This document shows, in pieces, positions 923-38,664 of a stretch of DNA of 64,000 nucleotides. Position 1 is the stretch's first letter, and the number at the start of each line of letters is the position of its first letter. The notes below the pieces were generated by a model. The model saw nothing but the letters and a program-made list of their open reading frames with translations. It was not told where the DNA came from and made no database searches. The DNA is from an uncultured Actinomycetota bacterium (GTDB taxonomy: Bacteria > Actinomycetota > Actinomycetes > JAHEKZ01). A program made the position numbers and the translations under genes. The DNA lies in the NCBI GenBank assembly GCA_963743915.1, contig CAVURN010000003.1:480001-544000 (forward strand), in the 5' to 3' direction.

Positions 923-925
923 TCT

Positions 926-983
926 CTACGCCAGACCGCCACAGTCACGTCGTAGGACGGGGCATCGTGGCGCCCTGGCGTAG
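926..983. repeat. 58-bp palindromic repeat family 1, copy A
   Basis: CTACGCCAGACCGCCAC...GTGGCGCCCTGGCGTAG; matches copies at 6450, 7506, 7941, 24565, 38608. Confidence 0.9.
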
Positions 984-995
984 GAGCTGCGGTCG

Positions 996-5794: not shown

Positions 5795-5823
5795 GGGTAA
5801 CGAGGCGTCTAGGCTCCCGCGGC

Positions 5824-6435
5824 ATGGACGTCGTCGGCGTGGGGCCTCATCCGCATCCGTGGCCGGACGACGCGCGCCTGGATCCTGAGCTGCTCGCGTC
5901 CGGTGACCGACGCAATGTGGTGGACCGCTACCGGTACTGGCGCCGGGAGGCGATCATTGCGGACCTCGACCAGCGGCGACACGGATTCCACGTCGCGATC
6001 GAGAACTGGGAGCACGACTTCAACATCGGCAGCGTGGTGCGAACCGCCAATGCGTTTCTGGCTGCCGAGGTGCACATCGTCGGACGCCGGCGGTGGAACC
6101 GACGCGGTGCGATGGTGACCGACCGCTACCAGCACGTCCGCCACCACGACGACGTCGAGTCGCTGGTCGGCTGGGCGTCCGAGGAAGGGGTGCCGTTGCT
6201 CGGCATCGACAACCTGCCGGGCTCGGTCCCGCTGGAGACCTACCGGCTGCCCGAGCGTTGCGTGCTCGTGTTCGGCCAGGAAGGCCCGGGGCTGTCCGAG
6301 GCCGCGCGTGCGGCGTCCGAGGCGACGTTGTCGATCGCTCAGTACGGGTCGACCCGGTCGATCAACGCGGGAGCGGCCGCGGCCATCGCGATGCACGCCT
6401 GGATCCGCCAGCACGCGGACCCGCCGGCCCCCTGA
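5824..6435 (+). CDS. TrmH/SpoU family RNA methyltransferase
   Basis: HDFNIGSVVRTANAF, FGQEGPGLS, STRSINAGAA SPOUT motifs. Confidence 0.9.
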   Translation: MDVVGVGPHPHPWPDDARLDPELLASGDRRNVVDRYRYWRREAIIADLDQRRHGFHVAIENWEHDFNIGSVVRTANAFLAAEVHIVGRRRWNRRGAMVTDRYQHVRHHDDVESLVGWASEEGVPLLGIDNLPGSVPLETYRLPERCVLVFGQEGPGLSEAARAASEATLSIAQYGSTRSINAGAAAAIAMHAWIRQHADPPAP

Positions 6436-6449
6436 CGTCGCACCATTTT

Positions 6450-6507
6450 CTACGCCAGACCGCCATGGTCACGCCGCAGGACGGGTAATCGTGGCGCCCT
6501 GGCGTTG
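6450..6507. repeat. 58-bp palindromic repeat family 1, copy B (4 bp beyond the AbiEi/DUF559 stop)
   Basis: CTACGCCAGACCGCCATGGTCACGCCGCAGGACGGGTAATCGTGGCGCCCTGGCGTTG. Confidence 0.92.
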
Positions 6508-6511
6508 GGAT

Positions 6512-7453
6512 CTAGGCTGGACGGCGCCGCCTCGCGCGGTCGAAGGCAGCCGCCAGGCGGTTGGCAAGGTTCTGACGGTCGCGCACGAGATCGGTCCAGA
6601 CGATGCGGACCACCTCGAAGCCGAGATCTCGCAGCCGGTCCTCGCGCTTCTTCTCCTCGAAGACCGTCGTGCCCTTCCCGTACTTGACCTCGCCGTCGAA
6701 CTCAGCAATCACACCGAGCTCGACCCACACGAAGTCGACACGTCCGATGAAGCCGCGGTCGTCGAAGAAGTCTTGCTGCTGGCCAGGATCGGGTAGACCG
6801 AGCTCGGCGAAGACGACCCGGCTCAGCGACTCACCAGGACTCTCTGACTTTGCCGTCGAGAAGTGGAGGACTCGTTCCACTCGGCGTCTCTGGCGTCGCG
6901 GCAGCACCGCGAAGGCGTCCCACAGATCCGTCTCGTCGACCAGCCGCTGGGAGAGCGCCGACTCGCACGTCACGACGGCGTCGGGGAAGTCGAGGGTGGC
7001 GGCGCAGTCGACCACGGTGCGGGCGGGTGCGGTCACCGCCAGTGCACCGTCGAAGGTTCGGAATCGAGCAGGCAGCGGCAGCTCGTGCACGCGCAACCCG
7101 CGGTAGTGACGCGGTGGACCCTCAGGGCGGGTGGTGTGGACCACCCCGCCCGGCGAGGTGAGCAACGCGATGCCCTGCAGCGCCGCAGCGCTCGGGTGGC
7201 TGATGAAGGCTCCGGGTTCGAGGGCGAGGATGCCCGCAGCCGCAAGCAGGCAATGGAAGGTGACGGCGTCGGTGCGGGCCGTGGCAACCGTCTCGGCCTC
7301 GGCGTAGACACCGCGTCGGAGGGACCTCCAACGACCGGCCCGAACCTGAGCGCGCACCTCGTCGTCGCTGTAGCCGGCGTCCTGTGCCTGGCGCGCGGTG
7401 AAAACCCCGAGCTGAACGGACGCGGTGGCGTCCAGGTGTGGATTCATCGGCAC
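6512..7453 (-). CDS. AbiEi-type winged-helix domain protein with C-terminal DUF559/Vsr-like PD-(D/E)xK nuclease fold
   Basis: N-terminal QLGVFTARQA...GRWRSLRRGVY; central SHPSAAALQG and TAPARTVVDCA; C-terminal ESPGES...GRVDF...EFDG...REDRLRDLGFEVVR. Confidence 0.8.
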   Translation of the reverse strand: MPMNPHLDATASVQLGVFTARQAQDAGYSDDEVRAQVRAGRWRSLRRGVYAEAETVATARTDAVTFHCLLAAAGILALEPGAFISHPSAAALQGIALLTSPGGVVHTTRPEGPPRHYRGLRVHELPLPARFRTFDGALAVTAPARTVVDCAATLDFPDAVVTCESALSQRLVDETDLWDAFAVLPRRQRRRVERVLHFSTAKSESPGESLSRVVFAELGLPDPGQQQDFFDDRGFIGRVDFVWVELGVIAEFDGEVKYGKGTTVFEEKKREDRLRDLGFEVVRIVWTDLVRDRQNLANRLAAAFDRARRRRPA

Positions 7454-7485
7454 AGGGTGGCGCAGTCGTGCGACGCGTGCCGGAC

Positions 7486-7494
7486 TTGTCCACA
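7486..7494 (+). promoter_or_regulatory. Perfect actinobacterial DnaA-box sequence upstream of the AbiEi/DUF559 gene
   Basis: TTGTCCACA between the gene start (7453) and repeat copy C (7506); function is inferred. Confidence 0.45.
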
Positions 7495-7505
7495 GCCCCC
7501 GAATT

Positions 7506-7563
7506 CAACGCCAGAGCGCCACGATTACCCGTCCTGCGGCGAGACCATGGCGCCCTGGCGTAG
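7506..7563. repeat. 58-bp palindromic repeat family 1, copy C (inverted relative to A and B)
   Basis: CAACGCCAGAGCGCCACGATTACCCGTCCTGCGGCGAGACCATGGCGCCCTGGCGTAG is a near reverse complement of copy B. Confidence 0.92.
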
Positions 7564-7569
7564 AAACGG

Positions 7570-7875
7570 TCATGGTGCGGTTCCCCAGCCGGGCCACGAC
7601 CAGGGCTCGAGCTCGGTGAAGTCGAAGGTCTCGGTGGCGGTGAAGACGTAACGCCGTACGGGTGCCGCGGTGTCCTCGGTGAGATAGGGGCTGCTGCCGT
7701 CATCCGGCATGTCGTGCGTCGTGCTGCCGCCGCCAGCACGCTTGATCGTCACCGAGAGGTCCAGGACCGGAAGCTTGAGCTCGGGCTCGTTCACGAATGA
7801 TCGCGCAATGAGCAGGTTCCCCTGCACGTCGTCGCTCCTGCTTCCCGTGACGGGAGCAGGGCACCCCGCCCCCAC
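7570..7875 (-). CDS. Hypothetical ORF or gene fragment between repeat copies C and D
   Basis: 101-aa ORF with no recognisable motif and uncertain start. Confidence 0.3.
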   Translation of the reverse strand: MGAGCPAPVTGSRSDDVQGNLLIARSFVNEPELKLPVLDLSVTIKRAGGGSTTHDMPDDGSSPYLTEDTAAPVRRYVFTATETFDFTELEPWSWPGWGTAP

Positions 7876-7940
7876 GAAGCCAAGAGCCGCGACATCTGCG
7901 CCAGGCGACCCGGAAAAGGTTGCCCCAGCTCCCCCATCTT

Positions 7941-7998
7941 CTACGCCAGAGCGCCACGATTACCTGTCCTGCGGCGCGACCGTGGCGGTCTGGCGTAG
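7941..7998. repeat. 58-bp palindromic repeat family 1, copy D
   Basis: CTACGCCAGAGCGCCACGATTACCTGTCCTGCGGCGCGACCGTGGCGGTCTGGCGTAG; same orientation as C. Confidence 0.92.
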
Positions 7999-8007
7999 AA
8001 AGGGGGC

Positions 8008-8430
8008 GTGACTGCGAACCTGCCCCCGAACCTGCTGGGCGAACCGCCCGCGACCCTGCTGCCCGAGAACGAGGTCGCCCGCGCCGCACTGGACGCCGGC
8101 ACCTCACCCCGCGAGGTGGCGGCCGCGCACCCCGACTACGCGCTGGCGTGGGCACTGCTCGCCGAGGGCGCACTCGCCGACGGCGAGGCGGTCGCCGCCT
8201 ACGCCTACGCGCGCACGGGTTACCACCGGAGCCTGGACCAGCTGCGACGCAACGGCTGGAAGGGTCACGGTCCCGTGCCGTGGGAGCACGAAGCCAACCG
8301 AGGCTTCCTGCGCAGCCTCAACGCGCTGGGGAAGGCGGCCGCCATCATCGGTGAGGACGACGAGGCGGACCGCTGTGCGCAGTTCCTGCGCGACTCCAGT
8401 CCCACCGCCGCCGAGGCGCTCGCCTCATGA
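8008..8430 (+). CDS. DUF3151 family protein
   Basis: AYAYARTGYHRSLDQLRRNGWKGHGPVPWEHEANRGFLR motif typical of this actinobacterial family. Confidence 0.88.
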   Translation: MTANLPPNLLGEPPATLLPENEVARAALDAGTSPREVAAAHPDYALAWALLAEGALADGEAVAAYAYARTGYHRSLDQLRRNGWKGHGPVPWEHEANRGFLRSLNALGKAAAIIGEDDEADRCAQFLRDSSPTAAEALAS

Positions 8431-9590
8431 GCGACACCTCCGGCGCCGATCGGTTGCGACGACGCCTCGAGGCGCTGCTCGGCATCCCGATGACCGAAGG
8501 CAACGCGGTGGACGTCTACCGCAACGGTGACGAGATCTTCCCGGCCATGCTGGACGCCATCCGGAGCGCCGAGCGAACCGTCGACCTGACGACCTACGTG
8601 TACTGGAGCGGGGACATCGCGCGTGAGTTCGCCGATGCGCTGGCCGAGACTGCAGCCCGCGGTGTTCGGGTACGCGTGCTGATCGATGCTGTCGGCGGCT
8701 TCAAGATCGAGGACGGCCTGGTCGACCGCATGACCCGGGGCGGCGTCCACCTGCAGTGGTTCCGCAAGCCCTGGGCGAAGTCTCCGTTCAAGCAGAACCA
8801 CCGGTGCCACCGCAAGGTGCTCGTGGTGGATGAAGCGGTCGCCTTCACCGGAGGCGTCGGGATCGCCGAGGAGTGGACCGGCAACGCCCGCAATGCGGAC
8901 GAATGGAGGGACACTCACGTGCGCGTCAGAGGCCCTGCCGTGGACGGCGTGGCCGCGGGGTTCTCCCAGAACTGGGCCGAGGGCGACGAGCCGATGTACG
9001 ACGACGCCGACCAGTTCCCCGAGCACGAGCAGTGTGGCGCGGCCACCATCCAGGTGGTCCGCGGGTCGGCGTCCATCGGCTGGGACGACATGCAGACGCT
9101 CTTCCATGTCGTCCTGTCCTCCGCCCAGGAACGGATCCGGCTCACCACCGCGTACTTCGCCCCGAGCCAGGACTTCATCGACCTGCTGATCGGCCAGGCG
9201 AAGAACGGCGTCCAGGTGCAGGTGATGCTGCCCGGACCCGGCGCGGACAAACGGGTGTGCCAGCTCGCGTCCGAGTCGACCTACGCCGAACTCGTCGACG
9301 GCGGCATCGAGGTGTGGAACTTCCAACCGTCGATGCTCCACGCCAAGATCATGACGATCGACGAGGAGCTCAGCGTCATCGGATCGTCCAACTTCAACCG
9401 GCGCAGCATGGACCACGACGAGGAGATCGCTCTCGCCATCCTCGACCGGGACGTGACCGCGACGCTCGACCTGCACTTCGACGACGACCTCAAGCGCAGC
9501 CGACCGATCGACCTGGAGCGCTGGCGGGCCCGCGGTCCTGCGCAACGCACGCTCGAGTCGGCGGTGCAGCCGATCCGGCGCTGGCTGTGA
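8427..9590 (+). CDS. Phospholipase D / cardiolipin synthase-like protein
   Basis: Two HKD motifs, HRKVLVVD and HAKIMTID, plus GSSNF. Confidence 0.9.
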   Translation: MSDTSGADRLRRRLEALLGIPMTEGNAVDVYRNGDEIFPAMLDAIRSAERTVDLTTYVYWSGDIAREFADALAETAARGVRVRVLIDAVGGFKIEDGLVDRMTRGGVHLQWFRKPWAKSPFKQNHRCHRKVLVVDEAVAFTGGVGIAEEWTGNARNADEWRDTHVRVRGPAVDGVAAGFSQNWAEGDEPMYDDADQFPEHEQCGAATIQVVRGSASIGWDDMQTLFHVVLSSAQERIRLTTAYFAPSQDFIDLLIGQAKNGVQVQVMLPGPGADKRVCQLASESTYAELVDGGIEVWNFQPSMLHAKIMTIDEELSVIGSSNFNRRSMDHDEEIALAILDRDVTATLDLHFDDDLKRSRPIDLERWRARGPAQRTLESAVQPIRRWL

Positions 9591-24531: not shown

Positions 24532-24564
24532 GAGCGCTCCTTCGCAGCGAACCGTCCCCCCTTT

Positions 24565-24622
24565 CTACGCCAGACCGCCACGATGCCCCGTCCTGCGGCG
24601 TGACCGCGGCGGTCTGGCGTAG
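24565..24622. repeat. 58-bp palindromic repeat family 1, copy E
   Basis: CTACGCCAGACCGCCACGATGCCCCGTCCTGCGGCGTGACCGCGGCGGTCTGGCGTAG flanked by TTT/AAA, between divergent genes. Confidence 0.92.
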
Positions 24623-24711
24623 AAATCGAGGGGGTCTGCCGGGTTCGGACGCCGCCCGTCCCGCCGATAGACTGAGGGCCTCATCCCGCCCCCGAGCAGC
24701 CGGAGAAGCCC

Positions 24712-37508: not shown

Positions 37509-38659
37509 CCATGGACGGGTCTGAGGGAGCCCAGAAGGTCACCTACGCCGACGCCGGCGTCCGCATCGCCGAGGGGAACCGCGCCGTCGAGCTGATGAAG
37601 TCGAGCATCGCGCGCGCGTCCCGGCCGGAGGTCGTGGGCGGCATCGGCGGCTTCTCCGGACTCTTCGACCTGACCCCGTTCACGCGGCTGCGTCGGCCGC
37701 TGCTCGCGTCCTCCACGGACGGCGTCGGCACCAAGGTCGACGTCGCGCGCCGGATGGACGTCCACGACACGATCGGCATCGACCTGGTCGCGATGGTGCT
37801 CGACGACCTCGTCGTCTGCGGCGCCGAGCCGCTCTTCATGACCGACTACATCGCGGTCGGCAAGGTCGTTCCCGAGCACATCGCGTCCATCGTCTCCGGC
37901 ATCGCGGAGGGCTGCCGCGTCGCGGGTGCCGCGCTGATCGGTGGCGAGACCGCTGAGCACCCCGGCCTGCTCGACCCTGACGAGTACGACGTCGCCGGCG
38001 CGGGTACCGGGATCGTCGACGCCGAGCACGTGCTCGGCGCCGAGCGCGTCCGGGCCGGGGACGTCCTCGTCGCCCTGGGCAGCAGCGGGCTCCACTCCAA
38101 CGGCTACTCGCTGGCGCGTCACGTCTTCTTCGCGCTCGCGCAGTGGAGCCTGGACCGTCAGGTGGACGAGCTGGGTCGCACGCTCGGGGAAGAGCTGCTC
38201 GAGCCCACGCGCATCTACAGCCTCGACTGTCTGGCGCTGGCGTCCGCGCAGCGCGAGCACCTGCACGCGTTCTCGCACATCACCGGCGGCGGCATCGGCG
38301 AGAACCTCGGGCGGGTGATCCCCGCCGGGCTCACCGCGACGGTCGACCGCGGCACCTGGACGCCGGCGCCGATCTTCGGCCTCGTCGGCGACGTCGGGAG
38401 CGTGGCGCGCGAGGACCTCGAGCGCACCTTCAACCAGGGCATCGGGATGGTCGCGGTGGTGGCCCCCGAGGCGGCGGACGCCACGGTGCGGCTGCTCACG
38501 GACCGGGGAGTGCCCGCGTGGGTGTGCGGTCAGGTGGCTGCGTCTGACAGCTCGGAGCGGGCCCGCCTGGTCGGCGACCACCCGCCTGAGCCTGCTGCCT
38601 TCGATCCCTACGCCAGGGCGCCACGATACCCGTCCTGCGGCGCGACTGTGGCGGTCTGA
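37505..38659 (+). CDS. purM: AIR synthetase
   Basis: TYADAGV, TDGVGTK, GGETAEHP, SSGLHSNGYSL, HITGGG, TFNQGIGM; the true stop may be near 38589. Confidence 0.96.
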   Translation: MTMDGSEGAQKVTYADAGVRIAEGNRAVELMKSSIARASRPEVVGGIGGFSGLFDLTPFTRLRRPLLASSTDGVGTKVDVARRMDVHDTIGIDLVAMVLDDLVVCGAEPLFMTDYIAVGKVVPEHIASIVSGIAEGCRVAGAALIGGETAEHPGLLDPDEYDVAGAGTGIVDAEHVLGAERVRAGDVLVALGSSGLHSNGYSLARHVFFALAQWSLDRQVDELGRTLGEELLEPTRIYSLDCLALASAQREHLHAFSHITGGGIGENLGRVIPAGLTATVDRGTWTPAPIFGLVGDVGSVAREDLERTFNQGIGMVAVVAPEAADATVRLLTDRGVPAWVCGQVAASDSSERARLVGDHPPEPAAFDPYARAPRYPSCGATVAV

Positions 38660-38664
38660 CGTGT
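38608..38664. repeat. Repeat family 1, copy F (57 bp, degenerate right end)
   Basis: CTACGCCAGGGCGCCACGATACCCGTCCTGCGGCGCGACTGTGGCGGTCTGACGTGT between convergent purM and DUF3073. Confidence 0.85.

What the first reader, a model, noticed from the sequence alone, without database searches (positions are those of the whole stretch)
6450..7563. Solo AbiEi-wHTH/DUF559 nuclease gene bracketed by inverted repeat copies: candidate repeat-mobilising system
Seen: copy B ends 4 bp from the stop and copy C lies 52 bp upstream of the start. They are inverted with respect to each other, and only these two copies carry the variant end CTGGCGTTG, both facing the gene. No AbiEii nucleotidyltransferase toxin is adjacent. 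Known: RAYT (HUH) transposase genes are flanked by their cognate REPs, which also occur dispersed in the genome, and DUF559/Vsr is a PD-(D/E)xK nuclease fold. Inference: this protein, usually labelled a type IV antitoxin, may instead bind and nick the 58-bp element and spread or maintain it, a REP/RAYT analogue using a different nuclease. This is the strongest candidate for an undescribed system in the window.
Basis: partly seen in the sequence, partly recalled or inferred. Interest (0 to 1): 0.88.

Follow-up and report, generated by a model that had tools for sequence, protein, structure and literature searches.

The report
Nuclease gene with its own dispersed repeats
A single-copy gene for a DNA-binding nuclease, usually labelled an antitoxin, sits between two inverted copies of a hairpin repeat that is scattered through the genome, and its relatives across actinobacteria each do the same with their own repeat, which points to an undescribed repeat-spreading system.

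Summary
The 311-aa gene (window 6512-7447, minus strand) lies between two inverted copies of a 63-nt imperfect palindrome, which has 27 copies in the 2.9-Mb genome.

One detail is wrong. The "variant end" occurs in about 12 of the 27 copies, not only in these two.

- Flanking inverted repeats stronger than every permuted control occur in 43 of 77 homologous loci from many actinobacterial genera.
- In a blind scan of 1,740 genes of this genome, 6 of the 9 best repeat-flanked genes belong to this family. Eight of its 11 paralogs exceed the 99th percentile, each with a different repeat.
- The arm of all nine repeat families searched recurs elsewhere in its own genome (16-69 BLAST matches in the eight outside G000).
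- Arm sequence is shared only where the proteins are at least about 55-70% identical.
- Eleven of 11 congeners lack one solo copy at its orthologous site.
- Metagenome contigs join across the whole cassette.

The protein models as an AbiEi-like winged-helix module plus a Vsr-like nuclease with four invariant acidic residues. The genome has no AbiEii toxin and no HUH transposase.

Best reading: a REP/RAYT-like system built on an unrelated enzyme. Binding, cutting and mobilisation are inferred, not shown. Three congeners carry a repeat family without its gene.

The parts
6438..7587 (.). Whole cassette (both arms plus gene) that behaves as one insertion/deletion unit
   Evidence: Contigs of three metagenome runs join 6437 directly to 7588, with 47-49 nt fitting on the shorter side. 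In 8 of 13 congener loci the SpoU and DUF3151 genes are adjacent without it.
6439..6507 (-). Downstream arm: repeat copy B (6447-6507) plus an 8-nt outer extension (6439-6446) that is also inverted at the other arm
   Evidence: It folds as a DNA hairpin of -16.4 kcal/mol, z -2.2.
6512..7447 (-). Gene for a 311-aa protein. Residues 1-198 are AbiEi-like (winged helix plus AbiEi C-terminal-like domain). Residues about 200-307 are a Vsr-like PD-(D/E)xK nuclease. E206, D238, E249 and D251 are invariant.
7504..7579 (+). Upstream arm: repeat copy C (7504-7566) plus the outer extension (7572-7579). It overlaps the last codons of the neighbouring 101-aa ORF.
   Evidence: Hairpin of -17.5 kcal/mol, z -4.2.
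7939..8001 (+). Third copy (D) of the same repeat, between the 101-aa ORF and DUF3151
   Evidence: Hairpin of -24.4 kcal/mol, z -6.4.
924..985 (-). Solo copy of the repeat, absent from the orthologous spacer of 11 of 11 congeners
24562..24624 (+). Solo copy of the repeat
38607..38662 (+). Solo copy of the repeat (slightly shortened)

Best explanation
This is a gene-plus-repeat system that works like REP/RAYT (REPIN-RAYT) but uses an unrelated enzyme.

Proposed mechanism:
- A single-copy gene encodes an AbiEi-type winged-helix DNA-binding module fused to a Vsr-like PD-(D/E)xK nuclease.
- The gene is bracketed by two inverted copies of a hairpin-forming repeat.
- The binding module recognises that family-specific repeat.
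- The nuclease nicks or cuts at the element.
- The short element is thereby copied or moved to other intergenic sites, mostly just downstream of stop codons.
- The gene itself stays put. It is inherited vertically and is sometimes lost cleanly together with both arms.

Shown here: the architecture, its recurrence across the family, dispersal of the cognate repeats, co-variation of repeat and protein, insertion polymorphism of a solo copy and of the cassette, conservation of the nuclease residues, and the absence of an AbiEii partner and of an HUH transposase.

Inferred: DNA binding, cleavage, and that this protein is what spreads or maintains the repeats.
For: Association in this genome:
- A blind scan of 1,740 genes of 150-600 aa for flanking inverted repeats has mean score 25.1 and 99th percentile 37.6.
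- A paralog ranks first (139), the focal gene second (105), and further paralogs score 85, 60, 60 and 50. Two IS481 transposases (50, 48) serve as a positive control.
- 8 of 11 family members exceed the 99th percentile, each with a different repeat.

Association elsewhere:
- 43 of 77 loci from named Actinomycetota exceed the maximum of 231 permuted controls, and 51 of 77 exceed the 99th percentile.
- The geometry is constant: arm median 82 nt, 102 nt from the upstream arm to the start of the protein match, 8 nt from the stop to the downstream arm, 1,229 nt overall.

Dispersal:
- The focal repeat has 27 loci.
- The arms of homologs give 30/29/14/13/5 matches in five congeners.
- Other arms give 17, 37 and 49 matches in G016, G035 and G037.
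- Named genomes give 69, 55, 20 and 16 matches in a Nocardioides, a Jiangella, a Geodermatophilus and a Rhodococcus.

Co-variation (903 pairs):
- Arm similarity above 40 occurs in 0 of 826 pairs below 45% protein identity.
- It occurs in 4 of 5 pairs at 70-85% identity and in 3 of 3 above 85% (two of these three are the same loci fetched twice).

Mobility:
- The solo copy at window 924-985 is missing from the 21-37-nt orthologous spacer in 11 of 11 congeners that have both flanks.
- Cassette-less joints appear in three metagenome runs.

Single copy and vertical descent:
- There is one gene per repeat family in G000.
- The cassette sits at the same SpoU/DUF3151 position in another genus, G016.
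- 8 of 12 homolog pairs share orthologous flanks.

Enzyme:
- The AlphaFold model has pLDDT 96.1.
- Residues 1-198 match AbiEi (6y8q, Z 11.8).
- Residues 201-307 match NGO0050 (Z 11.8), I-Bth0305I (Z 11.3) and Vsr (Z 10.1).
- E206, D238, E249 and D251 are invariant in 83 sequences.

No Y1 transposase and no AbiEii were found in G000.
Against: - No biochemical or genetic evidence exists that the protein binds or cuts the repeat. Everything here is comparative.
- G006 (97% complete, 3 contigs), G007 and G008 hold 5, 14 and 29 matches to the G013-type repeat, but no ortholog of its gene was found at E <= 1e-20. So repeats can exist without the gene, or the gene is unassembled there.
- 34 of 77 homolog loci and 3 of 11 paralogs show no strong flanking repeat.
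- In G000, three flanking repeat families have only 1-4 sites.
- No two focal copies were shown to be identical, and the listed copies are 84-93% identical to copy C. Recent activity is therefore not shown.
- The same intergenic site holds the focal repeat in G000 and a different family in five congeners. Site permissiveness or targeting therefore shapes the pattern independently of any one enzyme.
- The 77 loci include close relatives and three loci already seen through the genome search, so the counts are not independent events.
- Gene calls in G000 are my own crude GC3-based calls.
Confidence: 0.6

Rival explanations
1. The cassette is an autonomous IS-like transposon with long terminal inverted repeats. 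The gene is its transposase, and the solo copies are MITE-like or solo-end derivatives.
For: - Gene plus both arms behave as one indel unit, with boundaries just outside the arms.
- Distribution within the genus is patchy.
- A conserved motif sits at the outer ends of arms that are otherwise unrelated, in roughly 25 of 43 loci (counted by eye). Its log-likelihood is 217 against at most 48 in 5 shuffles.
- The IS481 elements of the same genome score similarly in the scan.
Against: - Each cassette is single copy in G000. The nearest paralog is about 30% identical and has a different repeat.
- Cassettes lie at orthologous positions between genera in 8 of 12 pairs.
- No target-site duplication is visible at the one solo insertion resolved.
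- Solo copies are whole arms, not pairs of short ends.
Confidence: 0.15
2. It is a homing-endonuclease-like selfish gene. The nuclease cuts a repeat copy and the break is repaired from the cassette, so the gene persists by gene conversion. Repeat dispersal has another cause.
For: - The C-terminal domain matches the catalytic domain of the Vsr-family homing endonuclease I-Bth0305I (Z 11.3; Foldseek probability 1.0).
- The cassette is present or absent as a unit.
Against: - The gene is intergenic. It is not in an intron, an intein or a conserved host gene.
- It is flanked by two complete elements, not by the two halves of one split target.
- It is single copy although 25 other potential targets exist.
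Confidence: 0.1
3. The repeats are spread by some other, unidentified machinery, or simply accumulate in permissive spacers downstream of genes. They gather beside these genes without any functional link.
For: - 19 of 27 copies sit within 20 nt after a stop codon whatever the gene.
- An amidase gene and an AlaX-like gene are also bracketed by two copies.
- Two different repeat families occupy the same intergenic site in different species.
- Orphan repeats exist in G006-G008.
Against: - It cannot explain why 8 of 11 paralogs each have a different repeat on both sides, inverted and with constant geometry.
- It cannot explain why 43 of 77 homologs across many genera do the same.
- It cannot explain why repeat sequence tracks protein identity.
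- No Y1/HUH transposase was found in G000.
Confidence: 0.08
4. The protein is an autoregulated transcription factor or defence component. The arms are its operators, and the dispersed copies form a regulon of binding sites.
For: - The N-terminal 198 residues have the AbiEi fold.
- The upstream arm lies a constant ~100 nt before the start.
Against: - There is a second arm downstream of the stop.
- Solo copies sit after stop codons (19 of 27), not at promoters (6 of 27 near a start).
- The acidic residues of the nuclease domain are invariant.
- Copies are insertions relative to congeners.
- No AbiEii partner exists anywhere in the genome.
Confidence: 0.07

Closest known systems
REP/RAYT (REPIN-RAYT) systems of Proteobacteria
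   Same: - A single-copy gene is flanked by inverted copies of a palindromic repeat that is also dispersed in tens of copies.
- Several gene/repeat pairs can coexist in one genome.
- Inheritance looks mostly vertical, with losses.
- Elements are extragenic and often lie at gene 3' ends.

The REPIN/RAYT properties come from the abstracts shown in the listing (bioRxiv 10.1101/2022.05.22.493013, PMC3337134, PMC3116915). I did not read the full texts.
   Different: - The enzyme is not an HUH/Y1 transposase. It is an AbiEi-like module plus a Vsr-like PD-(D/E)xK nuclease.
- No Y1_Tnp gene exists in the genome.
- The host phylum is Actinomycetota.
- Copy numbers are lower (4-40 sites, not hundreds).
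- Arms are longer (55-173 nt).
AbiEi antitoxins of type IV AbiE systems (S. agalactiae AbiEi 6y8q; M. tuberculosis Rv2827c 1zel)
   Same: - Residues 1-198 share the fold: Z 11.8 over 178 residues, and Z 9.6 over 184 residues. Foldseek gives E 1.6e-5 and 1.9e-5.
- Pfam AbiEi_4 is above its cut-off.
- Public records use this label for the family.
   Different: - No AbiEii nucleotidyltransferase lies next to the gene or anywhere in G000, despite 11 family members.
- A nuclease domain is fused at the C-terminus.
- The gene is bracketed by dispersed repeats.
Vsr / DUF559 / MTES_1575 endonucleases, including the homing endonuclease I-Bth0305I and NGO0050
   Same: - Residues 201-307 share the Vsr-like fold: 3hrl Z 11.8 at rmsd 2.6, 3r3p Z 11.3, 1cw0 Z 10.1.
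- The acidic residues are invariant.
- PMC3424549 (passages read) places VSR, DUF559 and DUF2726 in one PD-(D/E)xK clade that includes an intron homing endonuclease.
   Different: - Pfam scores for the focal protein are below the curated cut-offs: DUF559 18.3 against 20.6, MTES_1575 20.7 against 38.2.
- There is no link to a cytosine methyltransferase, an intron or a helicase fusion.
- The nuclease is fused to an AbiEi-like module.
IS elements with MITE derivatives; TnsA of Tn7 as a PD-(D/E)xK transposition nuclease
   Same: - The gene lies between inverted repeats.
- Short non-coding derivatives are dispersed.
- The cassette behaves as an indel unit.
- TnsA appears among the fold matches at Z 6.6.
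   Different: - The cassette is single copy and syntenic between genera.
- No target duplication was seen.
- There is no known transposase domain, whereas the IS481 elements of the same genome have rve domains.
- The TnsA match is weak and, on the tool's own guidance, within the range of a common fold.

Membership tests
REP/RAYT | The enzyme is a Y1 HUH transposase (Pfam Y1_Tnp, PF01797) | tested here: not met
   Pfam gives AbiEi_4 only. The fold is AbiEi plus Vsr-like. PF01797 has no match in G000, while the control genomes ring.
REP/RAYT | Single-copy gene flanked by inverted copies of its repeat | tested here: met
REP/RAYT | The same repeat is dispersed through the genome at extragenic sites | tested here: met
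   27 loci. 19 of 27 lie within 20 nt after a stop codon.
REP/RAYT | The enzyme binds and cleaves its repeat | not testable with these tools
   Needs EMSA and cleavage assays.
Type IV toxin-antitoxin AbiE (AbiEi antitoxin) | AbiEi winged-helix N-terminal domain and AbiEi C-terminal domain | tested here: met
   Pfam AbiEi_4 at E 1.3e-6. 6y8q Z 11.8 and 1zel Z 9.6 over residues 1-198.
Type IV toxin-antitoxin AbiE (AbiEi antitoxin) | Adjacent AbiEii nucleotidyltransferase toxin gene (PF08843) | tested here: not met
   The neighbours are SpoU, an ORF without a family, and DUF3151. PF08843 has no match anywhere in G000 (the genome is 90% complete).
Vsr / DUF559 endonuclease superfamily | Vsr-like PD-(D/E)xK fold | tested here: met
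   3hrl Z 11.8, 3r3p Z 11.3, 1cw0 Z 10.1 over residues 201-307.
Vsr / DUF559 endonuclease superfamily | Conserved catalytic acidic residues | tested here: inconclusive
   E206, D238, E249 and D251 are invariant in 83 sequences. I did not superpose them residue by residue on the catalytic residues of Vsr.
Vsr / DUF559 endonuclease superfamily | Pfam score above the curated cut-off | tested here: not met
   DUF559 18.3 against 20.6 bits; MTES_1575 20.7 against 38.2 bits. Some homologs carry precomputed PF04480.
Insertion sequence with MITEs | Autonomous element present in several copies, with a known transposase family | tested here: not met
   There is one copy per repeat family and no transposase domain.
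Insertion sequence with MITEs | Target-site duplication at insertions | tested here: inconclusive
   None is visible at the one resolved solo insertion. Only one site was resolved, and only against diverged congeners.
Homing endonuclease gene | Resides in an intron, an intein or a conserved host gene whose intact form is its target | tested here: not met
   The gene is intergenic and lies between two complete repeat elements.

The most novel reading that the evidence does not exclude
The 'solo AbiEi antitoxin / DUF559' proteins of Actinomycetota are a large, unrecognised superfamily of repeat-associated nucleases. They comprise 10,954 clusters at 50% identity at E <= 1e-30. On this reading each member recognises, cuts and propagates its own hairpin repeat family. 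The family would then be a second, independent origin of the REPIN-RAYT type of long-lived gene/repeat partnership. It would also be the first in which a Vsr-like PD-(D/E)xK nuclease, rather than an HUH enzyme, drives a bacterial interspersed repeat.
Probability: 0.5. Interest if true: 0.93.

Novelty: new variant of a known kind. Interest (0 to 1): 0.88.

Why it matters
Only one enzyme class, the HUH-type RAYTs, is known to me to be tied to bacterial interspersed palindromic repeats. That statement rests on recall and on the abstracts listed.

If this association is functional, three things follow:
- A very large protein family now annotated as type IV antitoxins, viral-defence regulators or Vsr endonucleases would need a new functional label.
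- Actinobacterial intergenic hairpin repeats would gain a candidate origin.
- The question of how such repeats spread and persist could be tested in a second, unrelated system with a simple two-part anatomy: one about 1.2-kb cassette and one 60-130-nt element.

A sequence-programmable pair of DNA-binding nuclease and cognate hairpin could also interest tool builders.

The finding also warns against counting these genes as toxin-antitoxin or defence loci in genome surveys.

Tried and rejected
- Rfam: only two sub-threshold microRNA-model hits in 5800-8500. The repeat is not a described RNA family.
- BLAST of the 63-nt repeat against 40 relatives found nothing. This first looked like evidence against a conserved system. 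It turned out that each lineage has its own repeat sequence.
- PDB sequence search with the family profile gave only 3hrl at E 0.13. Fold comparison was needed.
- The metagenome-contig scan returned only homologs of 32-38% identity.
- The idea that the gene sits inside one split palindrome, as a homing model would predict, was rejected. Both arms are complete elements, and in G035 the solo doublets are centred on the outer hairpin of the arm.
- The hairpins lack a T-run after the stem, so they are not canonical intrinsic terminators. A role as a terminator or mRNA stabiliser cannot be excluded and was not tested.
- The joint 6505->7939 in run X2 has only 28 nt on its shorter side and lies between two repeat copies. 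I treat it as a possible assembly collapse.
- Depth figures were not used to rank anything.
- Literature: no paper in the held library contains both 'AbiEi' and 'DUF559'. Searches listed nothing that describes repeats flanking these genes. Passages read in PMC3424549 and PMC3710099 mention DUF559/Vsr and MTES_1575 only as nuclease folds. Subscription journals and supplementary files are outside what I could see, so a prior description cannot be excluded.
- The 34 of 77 loci without strong arms were not examined further.
Full report
WHAT IS THERE

The window is G000:C3:480001-544000 of a 2.92-Mb genome in 5 contigs with 70% G+C. On the minus strand an ORF runs from 7453 (GTG) or, more likely, 7447 (ATG) to the stop codon at 6512-6514. 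Homologs begin M-x-P-x-L, which favours the ATG and a 311-aa product.

Pfam reports AbiEi_4 at residues 13-52 (E 1.3e-6, above cut-off). It also reports sub-threshold MTES_1575 and DUF559 matches at residues about 239-303.

The gene is bracketed by two copies of a 63-nt element:
- B, at 6447-6507, lies 4 nt beyond the stop.
- C, at 7504-7566, lies 52 nt before the GTG.

The two copies form 61-nt arms that are 93% complementary. A third copy, D (7939-8001), lies one small ORF further on.

Each copy is an imperfect palindrome and folds as single-stranded DNA into a long hairpin (-16 to -24 kcal/mol, z -2.2 to -6.4). Its two halves and its core are not identical, so orientation can be read. B and C are inverted, with the same end facing the gene. 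An extra 8 nt outside each arm is also inverted.

The repeat is real. It has 6 matches in the window against none in 100 shuffles. An iterated nhmmer search finds 27 loci in the genome (54 hits on both strands, merged). Rfam has no family for it.

- The "variant end" is not private to B and C. By eye, about 12 of the 27 copies have it at one end.
- Sitting a few bases beyond a stop codon is the general habit of the element. 19 of 27 copies lie within 20 nt downstream of a stop, using my own crude GC3-based gene calls. Random placement in intergenic gaps gives 1.5 +/- 1.2, with a maximum of 6 in 1,000 trials.
- Copy C is 3 nt from the stop of the neighbouring 101-aa ORF.
- An amidase gene elsewhere (C5:527563-528996) is also bracketed by two copies.

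On this window alone, the bracket could have been coincidence.

Within G000:
- The family has 11 members in G000 (profile search of six-frame ORFs, E < 1e-3). It is present in 40 of the 41 genomes searched, G000 included.
- The 63-nt repeat itself gave no BLAST match in any of 40 relatives.
- I scored every G000 gene of 150-600 aa (n = 1,740) for the best local alignment between its 450-nt upstream flank and the reverse complement of its downstream flank. The mean is 25.1, the sd 5.6 and the 99th percentile 37.6.
- The top of the list reads: a paralog (139), the focal gene (105), an AlaX-like gene flanked by copies of another paralog's repeat (97), three paralogs (85, 60, 60), an unknown ORF (52), RsmI (51) and a paralog (50). 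Two IS481-family transposases follow (50, 48) and act as a positive control.
- Scored directly, the 11 members give 139, 105, 85, 60, 60, 50, 42, 39, 36, 30 and 25. Eight exceed the 99th percentile.
- Each has a different repeat. Site counts in G000 are 25 (focal), 15 and 9 (the one shared family, counted from two different query arms), 7, 4, 4 and 1.

Outside G000:
- Five of the 11 closest loci from relatives score above 57 (L016, L019, L020, L023, L026), and L017 scores 50.
- A scan of one genome per species returned 80 loci from named Actinomycetota. They include Geodermatophilus, Blastococcus, Modestobacter, Jiangella, Pseudonocardia, Nocardioides, Rhodococcus, Cellulomonas and Microlunatus.
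- Three loci had flanks too short to test. Of the other 77, 43 exceed the maximum (57) of 231 permuted upstream/downstream pairs, and 51 exceed the 99th percentile.
- Three of the 77 are the same loci as L016, L019 and L023, and several are close relatives. These are therefore not 43 independent events.
- In the 43 loci the geometry is constant: arm median 82 nt (55-173), 102 nt from the upstream arm to the start of the protein match (IQR 85-116), 8 nt from the stop to the downstream arm (IQR -2 to 23), and an outer span of 1,229 nt.

THE FLANKING REPEATS ARE DISPERSED AND TRACK THE PROTEIN

I searched the arm of eight further repeat families in their own genomes:
- The G013 arm gives 30 matches in G013, 29 in G008, 14 in G007, 13 in G005, 5 in G006 and none in G000.
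- The G016 arm gives 17 matches, the G035 arm 37 and the G037 arm 49.
- Nocardioides sp. CCNWLW239 gives 69, Jiangella endophytica 55, Geodermatophilus amargosae 20 and Rhodococcus sp. Leaf278 16.

Matches on both strands of one site are counted separately, so the number of sites is roughly half to two thirds of these figures.

Across 43 loci (903 pairs), arms are recognisably similar (score above 40) in the following bands of protein identity:
- 0 of 826 pairs below 45% identity
- 1 of 53 pairs at 45-55%
- 3 of 16 pairs at 55-70%
- 4 of 5 pairs at 70-85%
- 3 of 3 pairs above 85% (two of these three are the same loci fetched twice)

The focal arm and the arm of its 56%-identical relative in G016 share only their terminal words.

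An expectation-maximisation search found a 16-nt motif at the outer end of both arms in roughly 25 of the 43 loci (counted by eye), in arms that are otherwise unrelated. Its log-likelihood is 217, against 35-48 in five shuffles. The focal arm matches it only weakly. Left and right arms, and related loci, are not independent in that figure.

MOBILITY AND INHERITANCE

Solo copies:
- The solo copy at window 924-985 is an insertion. All 11 congeners that have both flanks show a 21-37-nt spacer there, against about 80 nt in G000. No target duplication is visible.
- At a second site (C1:214627), two congeners are empty. Five carry the G013-type element at the same spot where G000 carries its own.

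The cassette as a whole:
- In 8 of 13 congener loci SpoU and DUF3151 are adjacent. G013 has only a relative of the 101-aa ORF between them.
- Contigs of three metagenome runs from three studies join 6437 to 7588, skipping both arms and the gene. The shorter side fits over 47-49 nt at 90% or better. These contigs may come from a close relative rather than the same strain.
- The cassette is nevertheless not a jumping gene on short time scales. In G016, a different genus of the same family, the 56%-identical gene sits in the same place: SpoU, two repeats, gene, repeat, DUF3151.
- 8 of 12 homolog pairs of 53-86% identity share orthologous flanks. One such pair is Blastococcus jejuensis and a Geodermatophilus.

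The simplest history is vertical descent with clean losses.

THE PROTEIN

An AlphaFold2 model built on 83 sequences has mean pLDDT 96.1 and pTM 0.92.

- Residues 1-198 align with AbiEi of Streptococcus agalactiae (6y8q, Z 11.8, 178 residues) and with Rv2827c (1zel, Z 9.6).
- Residues 201-307 align with NGO0050 (3hrl, Z 11.8, rmsd 2.6), the catalytic domain of the homing endonuclease I-Bth0305I (3r3p, Z 11.3) and Vsr bound to DNA (1cw0, Z 10.1) (Foldseek agrees).
- E206, D238, E249 and D251 are invariant in all 83 sequences, including paralogs of 23-29% identity. R210, Q224, G252, K255 and Y256 are nearly invariant.
- The nuclease domain is somewhat more conserved than the winged-helix part (mean majority fraction 0.58 against 0.48).
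- G000 has no match to AbiEii (PF08843) and none to the Y1 transposase family of RAYTs and IS200 (PF01797). Both searches rang in control genomes, and G000 is 90% complete.
- The profile finds 10,954 clusters at 50% identity at E <= 1e-30 and 36,455 at E <= 1e-10.
- Sources name these proteins AbiEi-family antitoxin domain proteins, regulators of a viral defence system, Vsr endonucleases or hypothetical proteins.

HOW IT MOST LIKELY WORKS

The pattern is that of REP/RAYT, as summarised in the abstracts listed. It has a single-copy gene between inverted copies of its own palindromic repeat, dispersed non-coding copies, several gene/repeat pairs in one genome, vertical inheritance, and co-divergence of gene and repeat.

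I therefore propose that the AbiEi-like module reads the family-specific hairpin or duplex. The Vsr-like domain nicks it, and the short element is copied or moved into spacers just downstream of genes. The gene itself stays in place.

The steps from binding onwards are inference. My confidence is about 0.6.

EVIDENCE AGAINST

- G006, G007 and G008 hold the G013-type repeat (5, 14 and 29 matches), but no ortholog of its gene was found at E <= 1e-20. None of their other family members lies next to such a copy (by comparing the coordinates listed).
- Because five species share one copy at an orthologous site, these may be old relics that outlived the gene.
- 34 of 77 loci and 3 of 11 paralogs lack strong arms.
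- Some flanking families have only 1-4 sites.
- Recent activity is not shown.

RIVALS

- An IS-like transposon with MITEs (0.15).
- A homing-type selfish nuclease (0.10).
- Repeats spread by something else that merely collect beside these genes (0.08).
- An autoregulator with a regulon of operators (0.07).

Evidence for and against each is given in the Rival explanations section.

KNOWN OR NEW

It is not a member of REP/RAYT, because the enzyme is different. It is not an AbiE toxin-antitoxin pair, because there is no toxin. It is not a typical IS, being single copy with no transposase domain. It is not a classical homing endonuclease gene.

Seven full-text searches and two papers read in passages gave no description of repeats flanking these genes. 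Supplements and subscription journals were not visible to me.

I rate it a new variant of a known kind: the REP/RAYT logic with unrelated parts. Interest is high, because the family is very large, is mis-labelled, and is easy to test.

Noticed in passing
window 7570-7875 (minus strand): A 101-aa ORF without a Pfam family lies between repeat copies C and D. Relatives of it occupy the same SpoU/DUF3151 interval in G013 (in two pieces) and G003, but not in 8 other congeners. Its last five codons and stop lie inside the segment skipped by the cassette-less contigs.
   Followed up: partly
G000:C5:527490-529053 (locus L122): An amidase gene (477 aa, PF01425) is bracketed by two copies of the focal repeat, so bracketing by this repeat is not exclusive to the nuclease gene.
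   Followed up: partly
G000:C5:20763-21980 (locus L107): The strongest repeat-flanked gene of the genome is a paralog. Its arms are three tandem units of about 35 nt each, a different arm design from the focal hairpin. The arm has 7 sites in the genome.
   Followed up: partly
G000:C1:214627-214688 and loci L139, L140, L143, L146, L147: The same intergenic spot, just after a stop codon, holds the focal-type element in G000 and the unrelated G013-type element in five congeners. Two congeners are empty, and G010 may hold a decayed right half. This suggests a preferred or permissive target.
   Followed up: partly
loci L036, L038, L041, L045, L050, L057, L063, L070, L071, L076, L089, L090 and others: A shared 16-nt motif sits at the outer end of arms whose remaining sequence is unrelated. 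It is a candidate conserved cleavage or recognition site of the family. The focal arm matches it only weakly.
   Followed up: partly
G035 and G041: Many dispersed copies in these genomes are overlapping plus/minus doublets centred on the outer hairpin of the arm. They are symmetric composites reminiscent of REPIN doublets.
   Followed up: no
G000:C3:229804-231027 and C5:423337-424215 (loci L115, L116): Two IS481-family transposase genes (rve domains) with their own terminal inverted repeats. They are ordinary insertion sequences and served as a positive control of the scan.
   Followed up: yes
G000:C5:569654-570580 (locus L108): An AlaX-like gene (tRNA_SAD) is flanked by two copies of the repeat family that brackets the paralog at C1:646303-647403.
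   Followed up: partly
G044 (Rhodococcus sp. Leaf278) C1:147616-148800: Two further copies of the arm lie about 1.1 kb apart on another contig. This could be a second bracketed gene with the same repeat.
   Followed up: no
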